Part shown: positions 210 through 4,371 of the stretch, one piece after another
How the letters are laid out: each line of letters starts with the position of its first letter
Position numbering within the stretch: position 1 is the first letter of the stretch
Virus record (IMG/VR): IMGVR_UViG_2537561992_000028
Span: 1 to 4,371 of that record
DNA length: 4,371 nt
Direction: 5' to 3' (one strand)
From: a virus
Taxonomy: Duplodnaviria; Heunggongvirae; Uroviricota; Caudoviricetes
Position numbers and translations under genes: made by a program
Notes under the pieces: model-generated
What the model saw: the letters and a program-made list of their open reading frames with translations, nothing else
Database searches by the model: none
What the model was told of the DNA's origin: nothing

Positions 210-395
210 ATGTCATCGAAAAACCGGACCCGCAGAACCACAATCCGCAATATCCGTTTCCCCAATCACATGATTGAACAGCTCAATATCGCCCTTGAAC
301 ATAAAGGTTCCGGTAACTTTTCAGCGTGGGTTATTGAAGCCTGCAGAAGAAGGCTGTCAACAGAGCGTTCGGGTATGAATTACATAATTAAGTAA
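210..395 (+). CDS. Small ribbon-helix-helix-like (DUF3950/YlcI-like) protein, 61 aa
   Basis: ATG at 210 with GAGGA at 199-203 (6-nt spacer). Basic N-terminus, then a predicted beta-strand (IRNIRFPNHMIEQL) and helix (NIALEHKGSGNFSAWVIEACRRR), the pattern of Arc/CopG-type RHH DNA binders. Diverges from the HNH gene; a similar small protein sits here in DLP12-type prophages (from memory). Confidence 0.5.
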   Translation: MSSKNRTRRTTIRNIRFPNHMIEQLNIALEHKGSGNFSAWVIEACRRRLSTERSGMNYIIK

Positions 396-1871: not shown

Positions 1872-2041
1872 AGCTACCCCTTAATTGCCACAATTCACTG
1901 GGATACTACCCATAAAAAAGGGATGCTCCAGACCAGCAAAAATTTCCAGTTTGGTAATTGACTAATCATGAGTCGCAACTCCCTAATCAGTTTGCTAAAA
2001 TCAATCAAGGCAGCCTCCCATAGCTTACTGCCATAAACATA

Positions 2042-2078
2042 AAACCCCGTTTGCAACCAACAAACGGGGTTTTTACTT
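2042..2078 (+). terminator. Intrinsic (rho-independent) terminator hairpin in the endolysin-Rz gap
   Basis: Perfect 12-bp stem aaaccccgtttg (2042-2053) / caaacggggttt (2061-2072) with 7-nt loop. Followed on the plus strand by tt-ac-tttt-att, and on the minus strand by a shorter T-run. Looks stronger for rightward transcription but could act both ways. Confidence 0.6.
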
Positions 2079-2163
2079 TTATTCACTTGGGTTTTGCCAG
2101 TTCGCAGGATTTCGTGTTATCTGCCCGCGTTGGCCAACGTCATTTTTAAGCAAAATATTCTGC

Positions 2164-2697
2164 TTATCTGTCGATACCCCAGCACGCCAGCGCACTTTCC
2201 TGATCTCGCCGGGATACCTGACCGTAGCAATTATTTGAGCGGATACGGCAGTCTCTGCCACCGTCCTTAATCCACCAGCGAATCGCTTCGCAGGCACCTT
2301 TTCGATCACCTGCATTAATTCGTTTATAAAACGTCGACGGGAAACACTTACCGGGGCCAATGTTATACGGACAGAATGACGCGATCCCCGCTTTCTGGGG
2401 TTCGGTCAGCGGCACTTTGATGTTTTTCTCCACCCATGCCAGCGCCTTGTCACGTTCGATGGCGTTAACCTGGTCGCATTTTTCCTTCGTCAGTTTCATG
2501 CCAGGAATAACAGGCTTACCATCCACCCGGGTGGCTCCACGGCAGATGGTCCAGATACCCGCACCATCACGGTATGCCGTGGTGTGGTTACCTTCCTTTT
2601 CATCCAGAAACTGGTCGAGGATTTCAGGCGCAGACGCCCCTGCACCAATCAGCGCCAGAACGGCAGCCGACAGGCCGTATTTGATTTTTGCGTTCAT
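2164..2697 (-). CDS. R: SAR endolysin (signal-anchor-release lysozyme, glycoside hydrolase family 24)
   Basis: 177-aa ORF MNAKIKYGLSAAVLALIGAGASAPEILDQFLDEKEGNHTTAYRDGAGIWTICRGAT.... The Gly/Ala-rich weakly hydrophobic N-terminus is a typical SAR domain. The catalytic motif E-x8-D-x5-T (EGNHTTAYRDGAGIWT) is that of T4/P21-type lysozymes. No strong SD upstream. Confidence 0.9.
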   Translation of the reverse strand: MNAKIKYGLSAAVLALIGAGASAPEILDQFLDEKEGNHTTAYRDGAGIWTICRGATRVDGKPVIPGMKLTKEKCDQVNAIERDKALAWVEKNIKVPLTEPQKAGIASFCPYNIGPGKCFPSTFYKRINAGDRKGACEAIRWWIKDGGRDCRIRSNNCYGQVSRRDQESALACWGIDR

Positions 2698-2827
2698 GGA
2701 TATTTATCAGGATTTATCGGTTCCGAATCCCTGGATATGTTAAGCCTTCACCCCACCAGTGGTGGGCACTGGCGGGTTCTTAATTTCCCCGGATGATCGT
2801 GGATTACATTCCACCAGGAGATTACTT

Positions 2828-3460
2828 ATGCTTATCTATCCAGCGGCAGACCTCCGTTTACAGGGACGCAGAGCACAACCATGGGATAAAACAACCACTC
2901 ATAAATATCGTCCCGGTCAATATTATGACTTTCGTAAACACCCGGAACTGATCGAGACACACCTTGAGGATTTTGTTGAATATTCAGACAGACAAGCGAT
3001 TCAGACCTTTTTTTCTTTTGTTAAGTGGATCAACAGCAATTCATCTGCATTCGAGAGCACGGACTGCATGTTTTCAGGAACACCAAAGGTTGATGAATAC
3101 GCCCCGGTATTTGGTTGCACCCATGCGTCATCTGGCCGCTTCGAATTTTTGTTTCGCGATACGAAAATAAACCAAAATGAGCGAGCTGTCGGATGGGTAC
3201 TTAACAAACTATCGCTCTACCTTCAGAAAGAACGGCCCGATTTTTGTAAAGGAACCTTTGGCATCGTTCCCCTCATGACGGAATATACCGACTCCGGCGG
3301 TAACGAGTTCACCGGTTATCGTATTTGTGTCTATTTCGATGCTTACGGGAATGGAACAGAGGATACCTGGACTTCTCTCAACATCATGTTTGATGGCCTC
3401 ATGAAAGCCACCAAAAGAATGAGCAATGAAACAATCACTGGCGAGATGCGTCCCCTTTAA
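2828..3460 (+). CDS. Hypothetical protein of unknown function (210 aa), convergent with the late operon
   Basis: ATG at 2828 with AGGAG at 2816-2820 (7-nt spacer). About 127 codons (2828-3208) not shared with any other long frame. TAA at 3458-3460, followed by a short hairpin and T7 run. The track's 233-aa version starts at a GTG at 2759. No recognisable motif. Confidence 0.45.
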   Translation: MLIYPAADLRLQGRRAQPWDKTTTHKYRPGQYYDFRKHPELIETHLEDFVEYSDRQAIQTFFSFVKWINSNSSAFESTDCMFSGTPKVDEYAPVFGCTHASSGRFEFLFRDTKINQNERAVGWVLNKLSLYLQKERPDFCKGTFGIVPLMTEYTDSGGNEFTGYRICVYFDAYGNGTEDTWTSLNIMFDGLMKATKRMSNETITGEMRPL

Positions 3461-4000
3461 AAAATTATCCAGAATCTCACTATTTGCAGAGCGCTCTCTG
3501 TTTTTTTGAATACGGAAACACTCTGCGAGATTTCTGCTCATCACTTTCCGGCAATAATCGTAAAACGCCGCGAACTGCTCATCACGGCGTTTTTTTTCAC
3601 CTTCGGAAGGGATCTGCACCGACAGTTTTTTATTCAGTTCAACGACGCTGTTCTCCAGTTTTTCAATGCGTGATTCGATATCATCTTTTTCTGACTGTAT
3701 CGTGTTATATGCATTGTTAATTTGTATGGTATACCGCTCTTCTGAACAGAGGCGCTTTTCCGGCAACGGTTCGTTCCCTTCACATAACCCGGCAGCAATA
3801 TCCATGAAAAACTGCTTCGCCTTCTTTTTCGCCTCAGCTTCGTAAAACTCCAGCGGGGCACCTTCAACACGATCAAGATCAATCACCACATTTGGCAACA
3901 ACAGTGACGTATACCCACCAGTTTCCAGCGCCACAGTAACAGTAATCTTATCCGGGTAAATATTTATCCCTTTAACAACCAGTTCGTATTGTTTATTCAT
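3209..4000 (-). CDS. Hypothetical protein of unknown function (263 aa), directly downstream of and translationally coupled to the holin
   Basis: ATG at 4000-3998, 3 nt after the holin TAG, with GGGGAGAG overlapping the last holin codons. About 180 codons (3461-4000) not shared with the plus-strand ORF. Predicted beta-rich N-terminus, central charged helical/coiled-coil stretch (EKDDIESRIEKLENSVVELNKKL), and a C-terminal part that overlaps the convergent ORF. No recognisable catalytic motif. Confidence 0.55.
   Translation of the reverse strand: MNKQYELVVKGINIYPDKITVTVALETGGYTSLLLPNVVIDLDRVEGAPLEFYEAEAKKKAKQFFMDIAAGLCEGNEPLPEKRLCSEERYTIQINNAYNTIQSEKDDIESRIEKLENSVVELNKKLSVQIPSEGEKKRRDEQFAAFYDYCRKVMSRNLAECFRIQKNRERSANSEILDNFLKGTHLASDCFIAHSFGGFHEAIKHDVERSPGILCSIPVSIEIDTNTITGELVTAGVGIFRHEGNDAKGSFTKIGPFFLKVER
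3486..3507 (+). terminator. Weak terminator-like hairpin plus T7 run 3' of the plus-strand ORF (lies inside the minus-strand ORF)
   Basis: cagag (3487-3491) / ctctg (3496-3500) 5-bp stem with 4-nt loop, then ttttttt at 3501-3507, starting 26 nt after the TAA at 3458-3460. Stem is short, so function is uncertain. Confidence 0.3.
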
Positions 4001-4003
4001 CGT

Positions 4004-4210
4004 CTACTCTCCCCGCGCCGCCTTACGACGGTCCTCTCTGATTTTGAAATACAGGTTAGTAAGATACGTCAGCAGGCCAAACAGCAGACTCCCCAGCACA
4101 CCTATCGCCACCCACTGGGACGGAGAGACTTTGTCCAGCAGCTGCAGTAACCAGTATCCCGTCCCCACCGCTGACGTGGTGTATGACACACCTGTTGTGA
4201 TTTTTTCCAT
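4004..4210 (-). CDS. S: Class II holin (pinholin, phage 21 S-like)
   Basis: 68-aa [71 protein letters not shown]. Near-collinear with the phage 21 S holin as I recall it (...[14 protein letters not shown]...[22 protein letters not shown]). Two TM segments; GGAG about 11 nt upstream. Confidence 0.9.
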
Positions 4211-4254
4211 CTGATGTATGTCTCCGTCACCGCCGACAGAAAATGAAAGTAAAG

Positions 4255-4290
4255 AAAAACAAAAAAACCGCCAGTGTCACCCACTGACGG
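4255..4290 (-). terminator. Strong intrinsic terminator upstream of the holin, probably the late-leader terminator (tR' equivalent) read through by Q antitermination
   Basis: Minus-strand stem ccgtcagtg / cactggcgg (9 bp, one G-U pair, 5-nt loop) at 4268-4290, followed by T7-G-T5 (complement of 4255-4267), about 45 nt upstream of the holin ATG. The tR' assignment is by analogy with lambda and phage 82. Confidence 0.6.
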
Positions 4291-4371
4291 CCAACTCCGG
4301 GAGCCGTGATTATGGCATTCAGGCTCTGCTAAAAATGCCAGATAACATTCCGGCCTCCCCTGATTCAGGTT

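What the first reader, a model, noticed from the sequence alone, without database searches (positions are those of the whole stretch)
2698..4003. Lysis cassette split by a roughly 1.3 kb cargo segment between pinholin and SAR endolysin
In lambda and phage 21 the holin and endolysin genes are adjacent. Here the holin stop (4004) and the endolysin ATG (2697) are about 1.3 kb apart. The segment carries two long ORFs of unknown function in convergent orientation (263 aa on minus, 210 aa on plus) and looks lower in G+C by eye than the flanking lysis genes, which suggests acquired DNA. Late-operon morons often carry lysogenic-conversion, defence or counter-defence genes, but this position is not a hotspot I know of, so the function is open.
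Basis: partly seen in the sequence, partly recalled or inferred. Interest (0 to 1): 0.85.

Follow-up and report, generated by a model that had tools for sequence, protein, structure and literature searches.

The report
Reverse moron splitting a prophage lysis cassette
The 1.3 kb gap between the holin and endolysin genes of this Shiga-toxin-type E. coli prophage is real: it holds a truncated YdfR-family late gene and, on the opposite strand, a self-contained add-on gene cassette of the kind first seen in phage HK97, which encodes a conserved 210-residue protein of unknown function.

Summary
The pinholin (4004-4210, minus) and the SAR endolysin (2164-2697, minus) lie 1306 bp apart. The gap has 44.5% G+C against 54% in the flanking lysis genes. 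The two ORFs exist but overlap by 252 bp.

The plus-strand 210-aa ORF (2828-3460) is a real gene:
- It has full-length homologues at 53-65% identity, with dN/dS of about 0.1-0.3.
- It belongs to a family of about 250 clusters.
- Its AlphaFold model is confident (pLDDT 95).
- It matches nothing in Pfam, PHROGs, NCBIfam or PADLOC, has no PDB sequence match, and no informative fold match.

It sits in an ~0.8 kb opposite-strand cassette with a conserved upstream element, a structured leader, the ORF and a terminator. The same leader precedes at least 14 unrelated cargo genes at R, J, L and M junctions of lambdoid phages. These include the annotated 'reverse morons' HK97 gp23, HK022 srb and ES18 gp25.

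The minus-strand 263-aa ORF is a YdfR/DUF1327 late gene. Its native 3' end is lost, and it reads through antisense to the cassette.

Verdict: a new member (new cargo, new site) of a known kind, the moron. The function is unknown; most likely it is expressed in the lysogen.

The parts
4004..4210 (-). S21-type class II holin (pinholin), 68 aa; one flank of the gap
   Evidence: Matches Pfam PF04971 at E 8.8e-33 and the phrog_9876/phrog_20 holin families. Maximum Kyte-Doolittle 19-residue hydropathy is 1.83.
3209..4000 (-). Chimeric late-strand ORF, 263 aa: a YdfR/DUF1327 domain, a coiled-coil module and a non-native read-through tail
   Evidence: Matches Pfam DUF1327 at E 7.5e-34 over aa 1-96. 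phrog_2091 (183 aa) and phrog_1085 (296 aa) match only aa 1-171. PGAP annotates only the first 83 codons, as a truncated pseudogene.
3713..4000 (-). DUF1327 (YdfR-family) domain, aa 1-96 of the 263-aa ORF
   Evidence: Pfam hit. Homology to BP-4795 YdfR ends at 3753.
3500..3688 (-). Module B (coiled-coil-like, phrog_36381/phrog_15975), aa 105-167
   Evidence: PHROG hits. In Stx2_499 and Stx2_12E129 the same module has no DUF1327 domain in front of it.
3209..3487 (-). Read-through tail, aa 172-263 plus the stop codon; antisense to the 3' end of the plus gene
   Evidence: No PHROG or Pfam match. The only database homologues are antisense ORF calls in E. coli. The codon-aligned antisense frame is open for 83-88 codons in the window and three of the four compared homologues (60 in L008), and in many further copies in the tail region. 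The sense frame is more conserved than the antisense frame in 28 of 28 pairs.
2705..2741 (+). Conserved upstream element TATCAGGAT-N15-CCCTGGATATGTT (promoter-like; putative -10 is TATGTT)
   Evidence: The exact pattern occurs in at least 119 viral contigs, always upstream of a plus-oriented cargo ORF and divergent from R, J, L or M. It lies inside the inserted DNA when compared with the empty I-J site of phage LAU1. Promoter function is inferred; the sigma-70 scan did not call it.
2752..2776 (+). Leader hairpin 1 (CCC-A-CCAGTG / GTGGG / CACTGG-C-GGG)
   Evidence: It is conserved with compensatory changes in 5 of 8 pairs, and 98% of cells are paired. It forms in the minimum-free-energy fold of the window leader.
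2791..2812 (+). Degenerate second leader segment (GGATGATCGTGGATTACATTCC), corresponding to the consensus GGGATGGCTGATTACCTC
   Evidence: Alignment of leaders. Conserved in sequence only, with little covariation.
2816..2820 (+). Shine-Dalgarno sequence AGGAG, 7 nt before the ATG at 2828
   Evidence: Read from the sequence. The N-termini of homologues align to this ATG, not to the GTG at 2759.
2828..3460 (+). 210-aa cargo gene: a soluble alpha/beta protein of an uncharacterised family
   Evidence: Full-length homologues at 53-65% identity. The family has 251 cluster representatives at E<=1e-3. dN/dS is 0.09-0.29. AlphaFold2 gives pLDDT 95.2 and pTM 0.91. No hydrophobic segment is present.
3486..3508 (+). 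Terminator-like hairpin GCAGAGCGCTCTCTGT followed by T7, 26 nt after the stop of the plus gene
   Evidence: Terminator scan. It coincides with the point where homology of the minus ORF to phrog_1085 and phrog_2091 ends.
2164..2697 (-). SAR-type endolysin, 177 aa; the other flank of the gap
   Evidence: Matches Pfam PF00959 at E 1.3e-25 and phrog_7. The N-terminal hydrophobic segment reaches Kyte-Doolittle 1.67 at residue 9.

Best explanation
**What is shown.** The gap is a composite of two convergent units.

1. Unit 1 is a late-operon gene of the YdfR/DUF1327 family. It starts 4 nt after the holin stop and carries an extra coiled-coil module. Its native 3' end, the C module of the 296-aa phrog_1085 type, has been lost.
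2. Unit 2 is an ~0.8 kb opposite-strand cassette (about 2698-3508). It consists of a conserved upstream element, a structured 5' leader, a 210-aa ORF with a strong ribosome-binding site, and a terminator-like hairpin.

This cassette belongs to a family of 'reverse morons'. Members share the same upstream element and leader but carry many unrelated cargo genes. They sit immediately upstream of late genes (R, J, L, M) in lambdoid phages of enterobacteria. HK97 gp23, HK022 srb and ES18 gp25 are annotated members.

The 263-aa ORF lost its own stop codon. It therefore reads through the cassette terminator and 252 bp of the cargo gene's antisense strand, which is open by chance.

**What is inferred.**
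- The cassette is transcribed from its own promoter, away from R, while the prophage is repressed.
- During Q-dependent late transcription, the converging and overlapping transcripts silence it.
- The 210-aa product is a soluble cytoplasmic protein with an enzyme-like set of invariant charged residues. It most likely acts as a factor that benefits the lysogen. I put host-fitness or stress enzyme at about 0.4, anti-phage defence at about 0.25, and other roles at the rest. It is not a lysis protein.
For: **Insertion status**
- S and R are adjacent in VT2-Sakai, P13374 and similar phages. BP-4795 has only ydfR between them.
- Homology to relatives breaks at 2762-2776 on the R side and at 3551-3753 on the S side.
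- Phage LAU1 is an empty I-J site for the tail-located copies.
- G+C is 0.45 against 0.54.

**The plus ORF is a gene**
- AGGAG lies 7 nt upstream of the ATG.
- Homologues of 210-219 aa share 53-65% identity and have no internal gaps.
- The family has 251 cluster representatives.
- dN/dS is 0.09-0.29, and the sense frame is more conserved than the antisense frame in 28 of 28 pairs.
- The AlphaFold2 model has pLDDT 95.2.

**Mobility**
- Homologues lie next to sodC in a Salmonella prophage remnant, upstream of the holin in a P22-like prophage, between tail genes I and J in 14 or more viral contigs, and next to tape-measure-like genes.
- In every prophage or viral context they are on the strand opposite to their neighbours.

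**Shared module**
- The element is found in at least 119 viral contigs. The divergent upstream gene is R in 96, J in 9, L-like in 8 and M-like in 3.
- The downstream ORFs fall into 15 unrelated clusters, including phrog_2411, phrog_1853, DUF1883 and a DUF6602/NucC-like nuclease.
- Leader hairpin 1 shows covariation.
- The same leader precedes HK97 gp23 ('reverse moron product'), HK022 srb and ES18 gp25. ES18 pairs its reverse moron with a late-strand DUF1327 gene.

**Chimeric minus ORF:**

**Published analogue of the architecture:** in phi80, taiEcA lies on the opposite strand inside the Q-dependent operon, with atiEcA on the late strand (PMC11364771).
Against: - The consensus scan called no sigma-70 promoter anywhere in 2500-4371. 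The -35 region of the element is not conserved, so promoter activity rests only on conservation and position.
- No transcript or protein data were available.
- PGAP leaves the plus ORF unannotated in many genomes.
- Within E. coli all copies are at least 99% identical, so there is no within-species test of selection.
- Environmental homologues sit in mixed chromosomal contexts. This argues against a role specific to phage defence, but it does not identify the real role.
Confidence: 0.7

Rival explanations
1. The convergent pair is a defence/counter-defence 'noncontiguous operon'. The opposite-strand 210-aa protein would be an anti-phage immunity protein made in the lysogen. The late-strand YdfR-family protein would neutralise it, or otherwise protect the phage's own lytic cycle.
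For: The architecture matches phi80 taiEcA/atiEcA (PMC11364771). ES18 also pairs a DUF1327 late gene with a reverse moron. One sister cassette carries a DUF6602/PD-DExK nuclease that matches NucC models. A Salmonella homologue lies 3 kb from a Kiwa system.
Against: None of the 92 family members matches a PADLOC model. Environmental homologues are not in defence islands. The same DUF1327 gene occurs with different reverse cargoes, or with none (BP-4795, Qin), and the I-J copies of the 210-aa gene have no DUF1327 partner. A cognate antidote relationship is therefore unlikely.
Confidence: 0.2
2. The 263-aa minus ORF is the only real gene across 3209-3460, and the plus ORF is a chance antisense ORF.
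For: Several phage records annotate the 263-aa ORF. PGAP often omits the plus ORF.
Against: The plus ORF has hundreds of full-length homologues, a low dN/dS and a confident fold. The minus tail has no homologues beyond antisense ORF calls. It falls outside every PHROG and Pfam match.
Confidence: 0.03
3. Both overlapping frames are functional, forming a true antisense overlapping gene pair. The C-terminal tail of the 263-aa protein would then be a selected domain.
For: The antisense frame is open over the same 83 codons in several diverged homologues. The same tail is kept in the 161-aa variant of Stx2_499.
Against: A codon-aligned antisense frame is expected to stay open often, because only TTA, CTA and TCA sense codons close it; this is established knowledge of codon usage. 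It is closed earlier in L008 and in the L045-L053 group. The antisense translation is less conserved than the sense translation in all pairs. In the tail-located copies the antisense ORF is joined to unrelated upstream sequence.
Confidence: 0.07
4. The plus-strand protein is a secreted virulence effector (type III secretion substrate), like many morons of STEC and Salmonella prophages.
For: It occurs almost only in STEC among E. coli. A Salmonella homologue lies near sodC in a prophage remnant.
Against: The family is widespread in Acidobacteriota, Myxococcota and other environmental bacteria, and in Enterobacter-type phages. The N-terminus is highly conserved and folds onto the domain in the confident model, rather than being a disordered secretion signal.
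Confidence: 0.05
5. The segment modulates lysis. Either its antisense transcript or its protein would tune endolysin or holin expression and so lysis timing.
For: It lies inside the lysis cassette. The conserved element abuts the R start codon. The cassette transcript would be antisense to the S-R late mRNA.
Against: The same cassette family sits at tail-gene junctions. The 210-aa gene also occurs outside phages. The protein has no membrane segment.
Confidence: 0.1

Closest known systems
HK97 gp23 'reverse moron', HK022 srb (gp23) and ES18 gp25 (morons as annotated in the GenBank records of these phages)
   Same: These are opposite-strand single genes inserted directly upstream of a late gene. 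They have the same upstream element, the same leader (CAGCCCGCCAGTGGTGGGCACTGGCG ... GGATGGCTGATTACCTC) and their own terminator. In ES18 and HK97 the reverse moron converges on a small late-strand moron gene, which is DUF1327 in ES18.
   Different: The cargo differs: 210 aa of an unrelated, widespread family instead of 73-95 aa proteins. The site differs: between holin and endolysin rather than between tail genes. The window's second leader segment is degenerate. The late-strand partner is truncated and fused to antisense sequence.
YdfR (E. coli K-12 Qin prophage) and BP-4795 ORF47, Pfam DUF1327
   Same: The N-terminal domain is the same (E 7.5e-34). The position immediately after an S21-type holin and before the endolysin is the same. 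The first 72 residues of YdfR were reported to bind the catalytic half of RNase E (PMC13232886).
   Different: The window protein diverges from YdfR after residue 83. It carries an added coiled-coil module and a ~92-aa non-homologous tail. RNase E binding was not tested for it.
phi80 taiEcA/atiEcA noncontiguous operon (Tai tail-assembly-inhibition defence, PMC11364771)
   Same: A gene on the opposite strand interrupts the Q-dependent late operon and is paired with an adjacent late-strand gene. The proposed logic is that it is on in the lysogen and shut off by converging late transcription.
   Different: No sequence relationship to Tai or Ati was shown or tested. The location differs: upstream of the packaging genes in phi80. 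No defence phenotype is known for the 210-aa family.
Lambda bor and lom, and the HK97 gp15 moron
   Same: These are accessory genes within late regions that differ in composition from their neighbours and are expressed from the prophage. bor is also on the opposite strand, next to the lysis genes (established knowledge; PMC3594210).
   Different: Those products are envelope proteins, whereas this one is soluble. They have no shared leader module.
Phage 21 lysis cassette (S21 pinholin, R21 SAR endolysin, Rz/Rz1)
   Same: The flanking genes are of this type.
   Different: In phage 21-type and many Stx phages S and R are adjacent. Here they are 1306 bp apart.

Membership tests
Moron (Hendrix/Juhala sense) | Extra DNA between two genes that are adjacent in related phages | tested here: met
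   S and R are adjacent in VT2-Sakai, P13374 and others. I and J are adjacent in Enterobacter phage LAU1, whereas the tail-located copies carry the cassette between them.
Moron (Hendrix/Juhala sense) | Nucleotide composition differs from the neighbouring genes | tested here: met
   G+C is 0.445-0.450, against 0.537-0.543 for holin, endolysin and Rz.
Moron (Hendrix/Juhala sense) | Own terminator | tested here: met
   A 6-bp stem followed by T7 lies at 3486-3508, 26 nt after the stop codon. This is a consensus match only.
Moron (Hendrix/Juhala sense) | Own promoter | tested here: inconclusive
   The sigma-70 scan found nothing. However, a conserved element with a -10-like TATGTT lies 87 nt upstream of the ATG and travels with the cassettes.
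Moron (Hendrix/Juhala sense) | Expressed from the repressed prophage | not testable with these tools
   This needs RNA-seq, dRNA-seq or reporter fusions in a lysogen.
HK97-type reverse moron cassette (shared leader) | Element TATCAGGNT-N15-CCNGG-(-10-like) followed by the hairpin CAGCCCGYCAGYGG...CRCTGRCG, upstream of an opposite-strand ORF next to a late gene's start | tested here: met
   The exact element is at 2705-2741 and the hairpin at 2752-2776. The R start codon is 8 nt from the element. The same architecture is present in HK97, HK022 and ES18.
HK97-type reverse moron cassette (shared leader) | Second leader segment GGGATGGCTGATTACCTC, whose GGCTGA is complementary to the 5' TCAGCC | tested here: not met
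   The window has TTCACCCC and GGATGATCGTGGATTACATTCC instead. This part is degenerate here, and in the family it is supported by sequence conservation only.
DUF1327 / YdfR family (the 263-aa ORF) | Pfam PF07041 match above the gathering score | tested here: met
   116.3 bits against a cut-off of 25, covering aa 1-96.
DUF1327 / YdfR family (the 263-aa ORF) | Full-length architecture of a described subfamily (114-aa YdfR, 183-aa phrog_2091 or 296-aa phrog_1085) | tested here: not met
   The matches stop at aa 168-171, and the rest has no family. PGAP flags it as missing its C-terminus.
Known anti-phage defence systems (PADLOC 2.0) | Significant match of the 210-aa protein or its relatives to a defence model | tested here: not met
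   None of the 92 members has a meaningful hit; the best E values are about 0.008, in single members.
Lysis proteins (antiholin, spanin, holin) | A membrane or lipoprotein signal, and conserved synteny within lysis cassettes | tested here: not met
   Maximum hydropathy is 0.46 for the 210-aa protein. Homologues sit at tail junctions and in non-phage chromosomes.

The most novel reading that the evidence does not exclude
The shared ~130-nt module may be a previously uncharacterised portable expression and regulation platform. The module consists of the conserved element, a 5' hairpin supported by covariation, and the invariant UCAGCC/GGCUGA and GAGG/CCUC segments just before the ribosome-binding site.

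Under this reading it would be a cis-regulatory RNA that controls when reverse morons are made. It would also supply the homology that lets lambdoid phages swap small accessory genes at R, J, L and M junctions.

The 210-aa cargo would be the founding phage-borne member of an unannotated family of about 250 clusters with a new fold-level function. It may work together with the converging YdfR-family late gene as an on-in-lysogen, off-in-lysis pair.
Probability: 0.3. Interest if true: 0.75.

Novelty: new member of a known kind. Interest (0 to 1): 0.5.

Why it matters
- The gene is carried, often in several copies, by about 2.5% of complete E. coli genomes, almost all of them STEC (O26, O145, O157, O103, O111). 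It sits inside Stx1a and Stx2a phages, next to the lysis genes that release toxin. A lysogen-expressed function or an effect on lysis would therefore bear on STEC biology.
- The gene is annotated inconsistently. PGAP often omits it and instead calls a pseudogene or the antisense ORF. The analysis here settles which frame is coding.
- The result links the gene to a large protein family that has no model in any of the libraries searched.
- It shows that the classic HK97-type reverse morons form a cassette family with a common structured leader and many cargoes. This gives a simple sequence handle for cataloguing accessory genes in the late operons of lambdoid phages.

Tried and rejected
- **Family searches.** Pfam, PHROGs, NCBIfam and PADLOC scans of the 210-aa protein and 91 relatives gave nothing.
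- **PDB profile search.** Only chance hits to septins at E of about 0.6.
- **Conserved neighbours of environmental homologues.** DUF1415 lies directly downstream in 2 of 7 contexts; otherwise the contexts are mixed. The literature search for DUF1415 found nothing useful.
- **Genome-contig scan** with the five-sequence alignment found no relatives.
- **Rfam** had no match in the region.
- **Known-site readings of the element.** Judged by eye only (no tool call): a LexA box and a sigma-54 promoter both fit with the wrong spacing, so I rejected them. The first block fits the IHF consensus WATCARNNNNTTR in the tail-context copies, but with one mismatch in the window; I left this as a lead.
- **HnrS.** I asked whether the prophage late-region sRNA HnrS (EcOnc10-12) is this leader. 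The paper gives no sequence or coordinates and no supplement is held, so this is unresolved.
- **K-12 Qin** has no intergenic space between ydfR and rrrQ, so K-12 transcription data cannot help.
- **The GTG start at 2759 (233 aa)** was rejected, because the N-termini of all homologues align to the ATG at 2828, which has the AGGAG upstream.
Full report
**1. The observation**

The window is the lysis region of a lambdoid prophage of Shiga-toxin-producing E. coli, read on the strand opposite to the late genes. On the minus strand lie:
- an S21-type holin (4004-4210; Pfam Phage_holin_2_1, E 8.8e-33);
- a 263-aa ORF (3209-4000);
- an endolysin with a hydrophobic N-terminus (2164-2697; Phage_lysozyme, E 1.3e-25);
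- Rz with Rz1 embedded in it (1270-1893 and 1311-1517).

On the plus strand a 210-aa ORF runs from the ATG at 2828 to 3460. The gap has 44.5% G+C, against 53.7-54.3% for holin, endolysin and Rz. The 1306 bp occur at 99-100% identity in 119 complete E. coli genomes and in eight Stx1a or Stx2a phage records.

**2. Is it an insertion?**

Many Stx phages, including VT2-Sakai and P13374, have S and R directly adjacent. BP-4795 has a 114-aa YdfR-family gene between them, and so does K-12 Qin. Other relatives carry other arrangements:
- a 183-aa protein (phage 2H10);
- a 213-aa protein plus a 104-aa plus-strand ORF (Stx2_12E129);
- YdfR plus a 90-aa plus-strand ORF (783R2).

Homology of the window to these relatives stops at 2741-2776 on the endolysin side and at 3551-3753 on the holin side. 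The slot is therefore a recurrent variable site, not a one-off.

**3. The plus-strand ORF is a real gene**

- It has an AGGAG 7 nt before the ATG.
- A word-indexed search found full-length homologues at 65%, 64%, 54% and 53% identity, 210-219 aa long, with no internal gaps.
- A profile search of 1.84 billion cluster representatives found 251 relatives at E<=1e-3, nearly all about 200-215 aa.
- Pairwise dN/dS is 0.09-0.29 wherever dS is not saturated.
- In the region that overlaps the minus ORF, the sense translation is more conserved than the antisense translation in all 28 pairs.
- With a 92-sequence alignment, AlphaFold2 gives pLDDT 95.2 and pTM 0.91. The model is a four-stranded antiparallel sheet packed against three helices, with a conserved N-terminal segment lying over the sheet.
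- The protein has no hydrophobic segment.

**4. What the protein is**

I could not assign it.
- No member of the 92-sequence set matches Pfam, PHROGs, NCBIfam or PADLOC meaningfully.
- A profile search of PDB sequences gives only chance hits.
- BFVD gives TM-scores below 0.5.
- Nearly invariant residues include R15, E47, D48, N69, S73, E76, D79, R104, R110 and N115. This looks like a binding or catalytic site, but that is only an impression.
- Environmental homologues, named as Vicinamibacterales and Polyangiaceae where a name exists, are single chromosomal genes in mixed neighbourhoods. A DUF1415 gene lies directly downstream in two of seven contexts.

**5. The gene moves as an opposite-strand cassette**

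Close homologues were found in these places:
- next to sodC in a Salmonella prophage remnant;
- just upstream of the holin of a P22-like Salmonella prophage, near a Kiwa system;
- between the lambda-like tail genes I and J in at least 14 viral contigs;
- next to tape-measure-like genes.

In each case the gene is on the strand opposite to its neighbours. Enterobacter phage LAU1 has the same I and J genes with nothing between them. This defines an inserted block of about 790 bp that starts just before a conserved sequence upstream of the ORF.

**6. A shared upstream module**

That conserved sequence, TATCAGGAT-N15-CCNGGNTATGTT, is at 2705-2741 in the window, 8 nt from the endolysin start codon. 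When each contig is oriented like the window:
- The divergent upstream gene is an endolysin in 96, J in 9, an L-like tail gene in 8 and an M-like tail gene in 3.
- A plus-oriented ORF starts 55-90 nt downstream in most.
- These ORFs fall into 15 clusters with no detectable similarity to each other, plus one IS fragment.

Five of the cargoes belong to recognised families: phrog_2411, phrog_1853, DUF1883, a DUF6602/PD-DExK nuclease that matches NucC models, and the 210-aa family.

Between the element and the cargo start lies a conserved leader with two parts.
- The first part is a hairpin (consensus CAGCCCGCCAGYGG-UGGG-RCRCUGGCG; window 2752-2776). Five of its eight pairs show compensatory double changes, and 98% of cells are paired. 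It exceeds all 500 shuffles on covariation score and clearly exceeds the slid registers.
- The second part is GAGGGAUGGCUGAUUACCUC, just before the ribosome-binding site. Its GGCUGA is complementary to the invariant 5' UCAGCC. It is conserved in sequence but shows almost no covariation.

The window keeps the element and the hairpin, but its second segment is degenerate. Rfam has no match here. The sigma-70 scan did not call a promoter. Promoter function is therefore an inference from position and conservation.

**7. Link to known morons**

A 131-nt query made of the element and leader from one cassette matches the region upstream of three annotated genes, at 75-79% identity:
- HK97 gp23, annotated 'reverse moron product';
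- HK022 srb/gp23, annotated 'moron gene product';
- ES18 gp25, annotated 'possible moron'.

Inspection shows the same element, hairpin and second segment in all three. In ES18 the reverse moron converges on a late-strand gene, gp24, which is a DUF1327 protein. That is the same pairing as in the window, but between tail genes M and L. The cassette is therefore a member of a known kind. What is new here is the cargo and the site between S and R. Whether the shared leader has been described before I could not establish, because the original papers are not in the library.

**8. The minus-strand ORF**

- Residues 1-96 are a DUF1327 domain (E 7.5e-34).
- Residues 105-167 match a second module (phrog_36381 and phrog_15975).
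- The full-length family profiles phrog_2091 (183 aa) and phrog_1085 (296 aa) align only to residues 1-171.
- The 2H10 protein ends seven residues after that point, and the 12E129 protein continues into a different C-terminal module.
- The breakpoint, near 3487-3505, coincides with the terminator-like hairpin of the plus gene.
- The remaining 92 residues are encoded by the codon-aligned antisense frame of the plus gene. That frame is open for 83-88 codons in the window and three of the four compared homologues, and is shorter (60 codons) in the fourth.
- A database search with the tail finds only antisense ORF calls from E. coli copies of the same locus.
- PGAP annotates only the first 83 codons, as a truncated DUF1327 pseudogene.

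I conclude that the late gene lost its native 3' end when the cassette arrived or was exchanged, and that it now runs on into antisense sequence. Whether the resulting protein still works is unknown. For K-12 YdfR, the first 72 residues were reported to bind the catalytic half of RNase E, and the protein co-purified with RNA (PMC13232886). That region is retained here.

**9. How it most likely works**

Shown: the anatomy, the coding status, the mobility and the shared module.

Inferred:
- The cassette is transcribed away from R from the conserved element while the prophage is repressed.
- It ends at its own terminator.
- It is shut down by converging, overlapping Q-dependent late transcription after induction.

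Exactly this logic was proposed for taiEcA in phi80. There the gene interrupts the Q-dependent operon in the opposite orientation, next to a late-strand counter-defence gene (PMC11364771).

For the role of the 210-aa protein I favour a cytoplasmic factor that benefits the lysogen. The family's wide chromosomal distribution outside phages, and the company it keeps in prophages (sodC in Salmonella; a nanS-p esterase and a TerB-family gene nearby in O26), lean towards a host-fitness or stress enzyme at about 0.4. Anti-phage defence stands at about 0.25. A lysis role or a secreted-effector role is unlikely.

**10. Verdict**

The finding is real and was read correctly in outline. It is best filed as an HK97-type reverse moron with a new cargo at a new junction, beside a damaged YdfR-family late gene.

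It is of moderate interest:
- The kind is known.
- The cargo belongs to a large family with no annotation anywhere.
- The gene is concentrated in STEC and in Stx phages: 133 of 5426 complete genomes, 200 copies, all but one of the 133 genomes at 99% identity or more.
- The common structured leader, shared by many cargoes at several late-gene junctions, is a tractable lead.

Noticed in passing
window 2705-2827 (+); loci L065-L182, L184-L186: A ~130-nt module consisting of the element TATCAGGAT-N15-CCNGGNTATGTT, a hairpin with covariation, and GGGATGGCTGATTACCTC. It precedes at least 14 unrelated small ORFs at R, J, L and M junctions in at least 119 viral contigs and in HK97, HK022 and ES18. It has no Rfam match.
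   Followed up: partly
leaders in L108, L126, L078, L128, L115; window 2793-2951 (+): The conserved ATGGCTGAT in the leader starts a mini-ORF: MADYL-stop in L108 and L126, MAASQR-stop in L078. Its stop codon overlaps the cargo's Shine-Dalgarno sequence. In L128 and L115 it is fused in frame to the cargo. In the window the equivalent ATG at 2793 opens a 52-codon out-of-frame ORF. I could not tell whether this is a leader peptide or only RNA structure.
   Followed up: no
window 4266-4292 (-): A terminator-like hairpin on the late strand (GGCCGTCAGTGGGTGACACTGGCGG followed by T7) lies 56 nt upstream of the holin start. Its stem sequence closely resembles leader hairpin 1 (CGYCAGTGG...CACTGRCG).
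   Followed up: no
window 1894-2163; locus L002 3421-3990: The endolysin-Rz junction is a second variable slot. The nearest Stx1a phages carry a 'phage antirepressor' gene and a small ORF there, whereas the window has only 270 bp. The first 56 residues of the 207-aa Rz ORF match an unrelated PHROG (phrog_3246), so the true Rz start is probably the ATG near 1731.
   Followed up: no
window 210-395 (+): Another opposite-strand small gene in the late region: a 61-aa DUF3950 (YnfO/YlcI family) ORF, matching phrog_949. It lies between the lysis and packaging genes, the position that bor occupies in lambda.
   Followed up: no
L011 9618-11257: The Salmonella P22-like prophage that carries a 64%-identical homologue upstream of its holin also carries a Kiwa defence system (KwaA, KwaB) about 3 kb away, between Q and the lysis genes.
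   Followed up: no
L046 5856-5890; L064 457-510; L184 1480-1502: In the tail-gene contexts a late-strand terminator-like hairpin (AGCCACCnnnnGGTGGCTTTTTT) lies 12-15 nt upstream of the J, L or M start codon. It is also present in the empty site of phage LAU1, so it belongs to the phage backbone. It is annotated 'terminator, putative' in HK97 and ES18.
   Followed up: partly
window 2828-3460; NC_013361 2196582-2197887; proteins P0249-P0254: Annotation of this locus is inconsistent across databases. PGAP omits the 210-aa gene in many genomes and calls a DUF1327 pseudogene. Other pipelines call the antisense ORF, at 104-161 aa.
   Followed up: yes
L015 5606-6172; L019 5633-6238; L020 1020-1628: In Acidobacteriota-type contigs the homologue is followed directly by a DUF1415 gene, either overlapping it or 14 nt away. 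This suggests a two-gene operon in part of the family.
   Followed up: partly
PMC13502914 (Sakai prophages Sp9, Sp10, Sp12): A 66-nt Hfq-binding sRNA, HnrS (EcOnc10-12), is reported 'within the late genes' of EHEC prophages. No sequence or coordinates were available, so any relation to the leader described here is unknown.
   Followed up: partly
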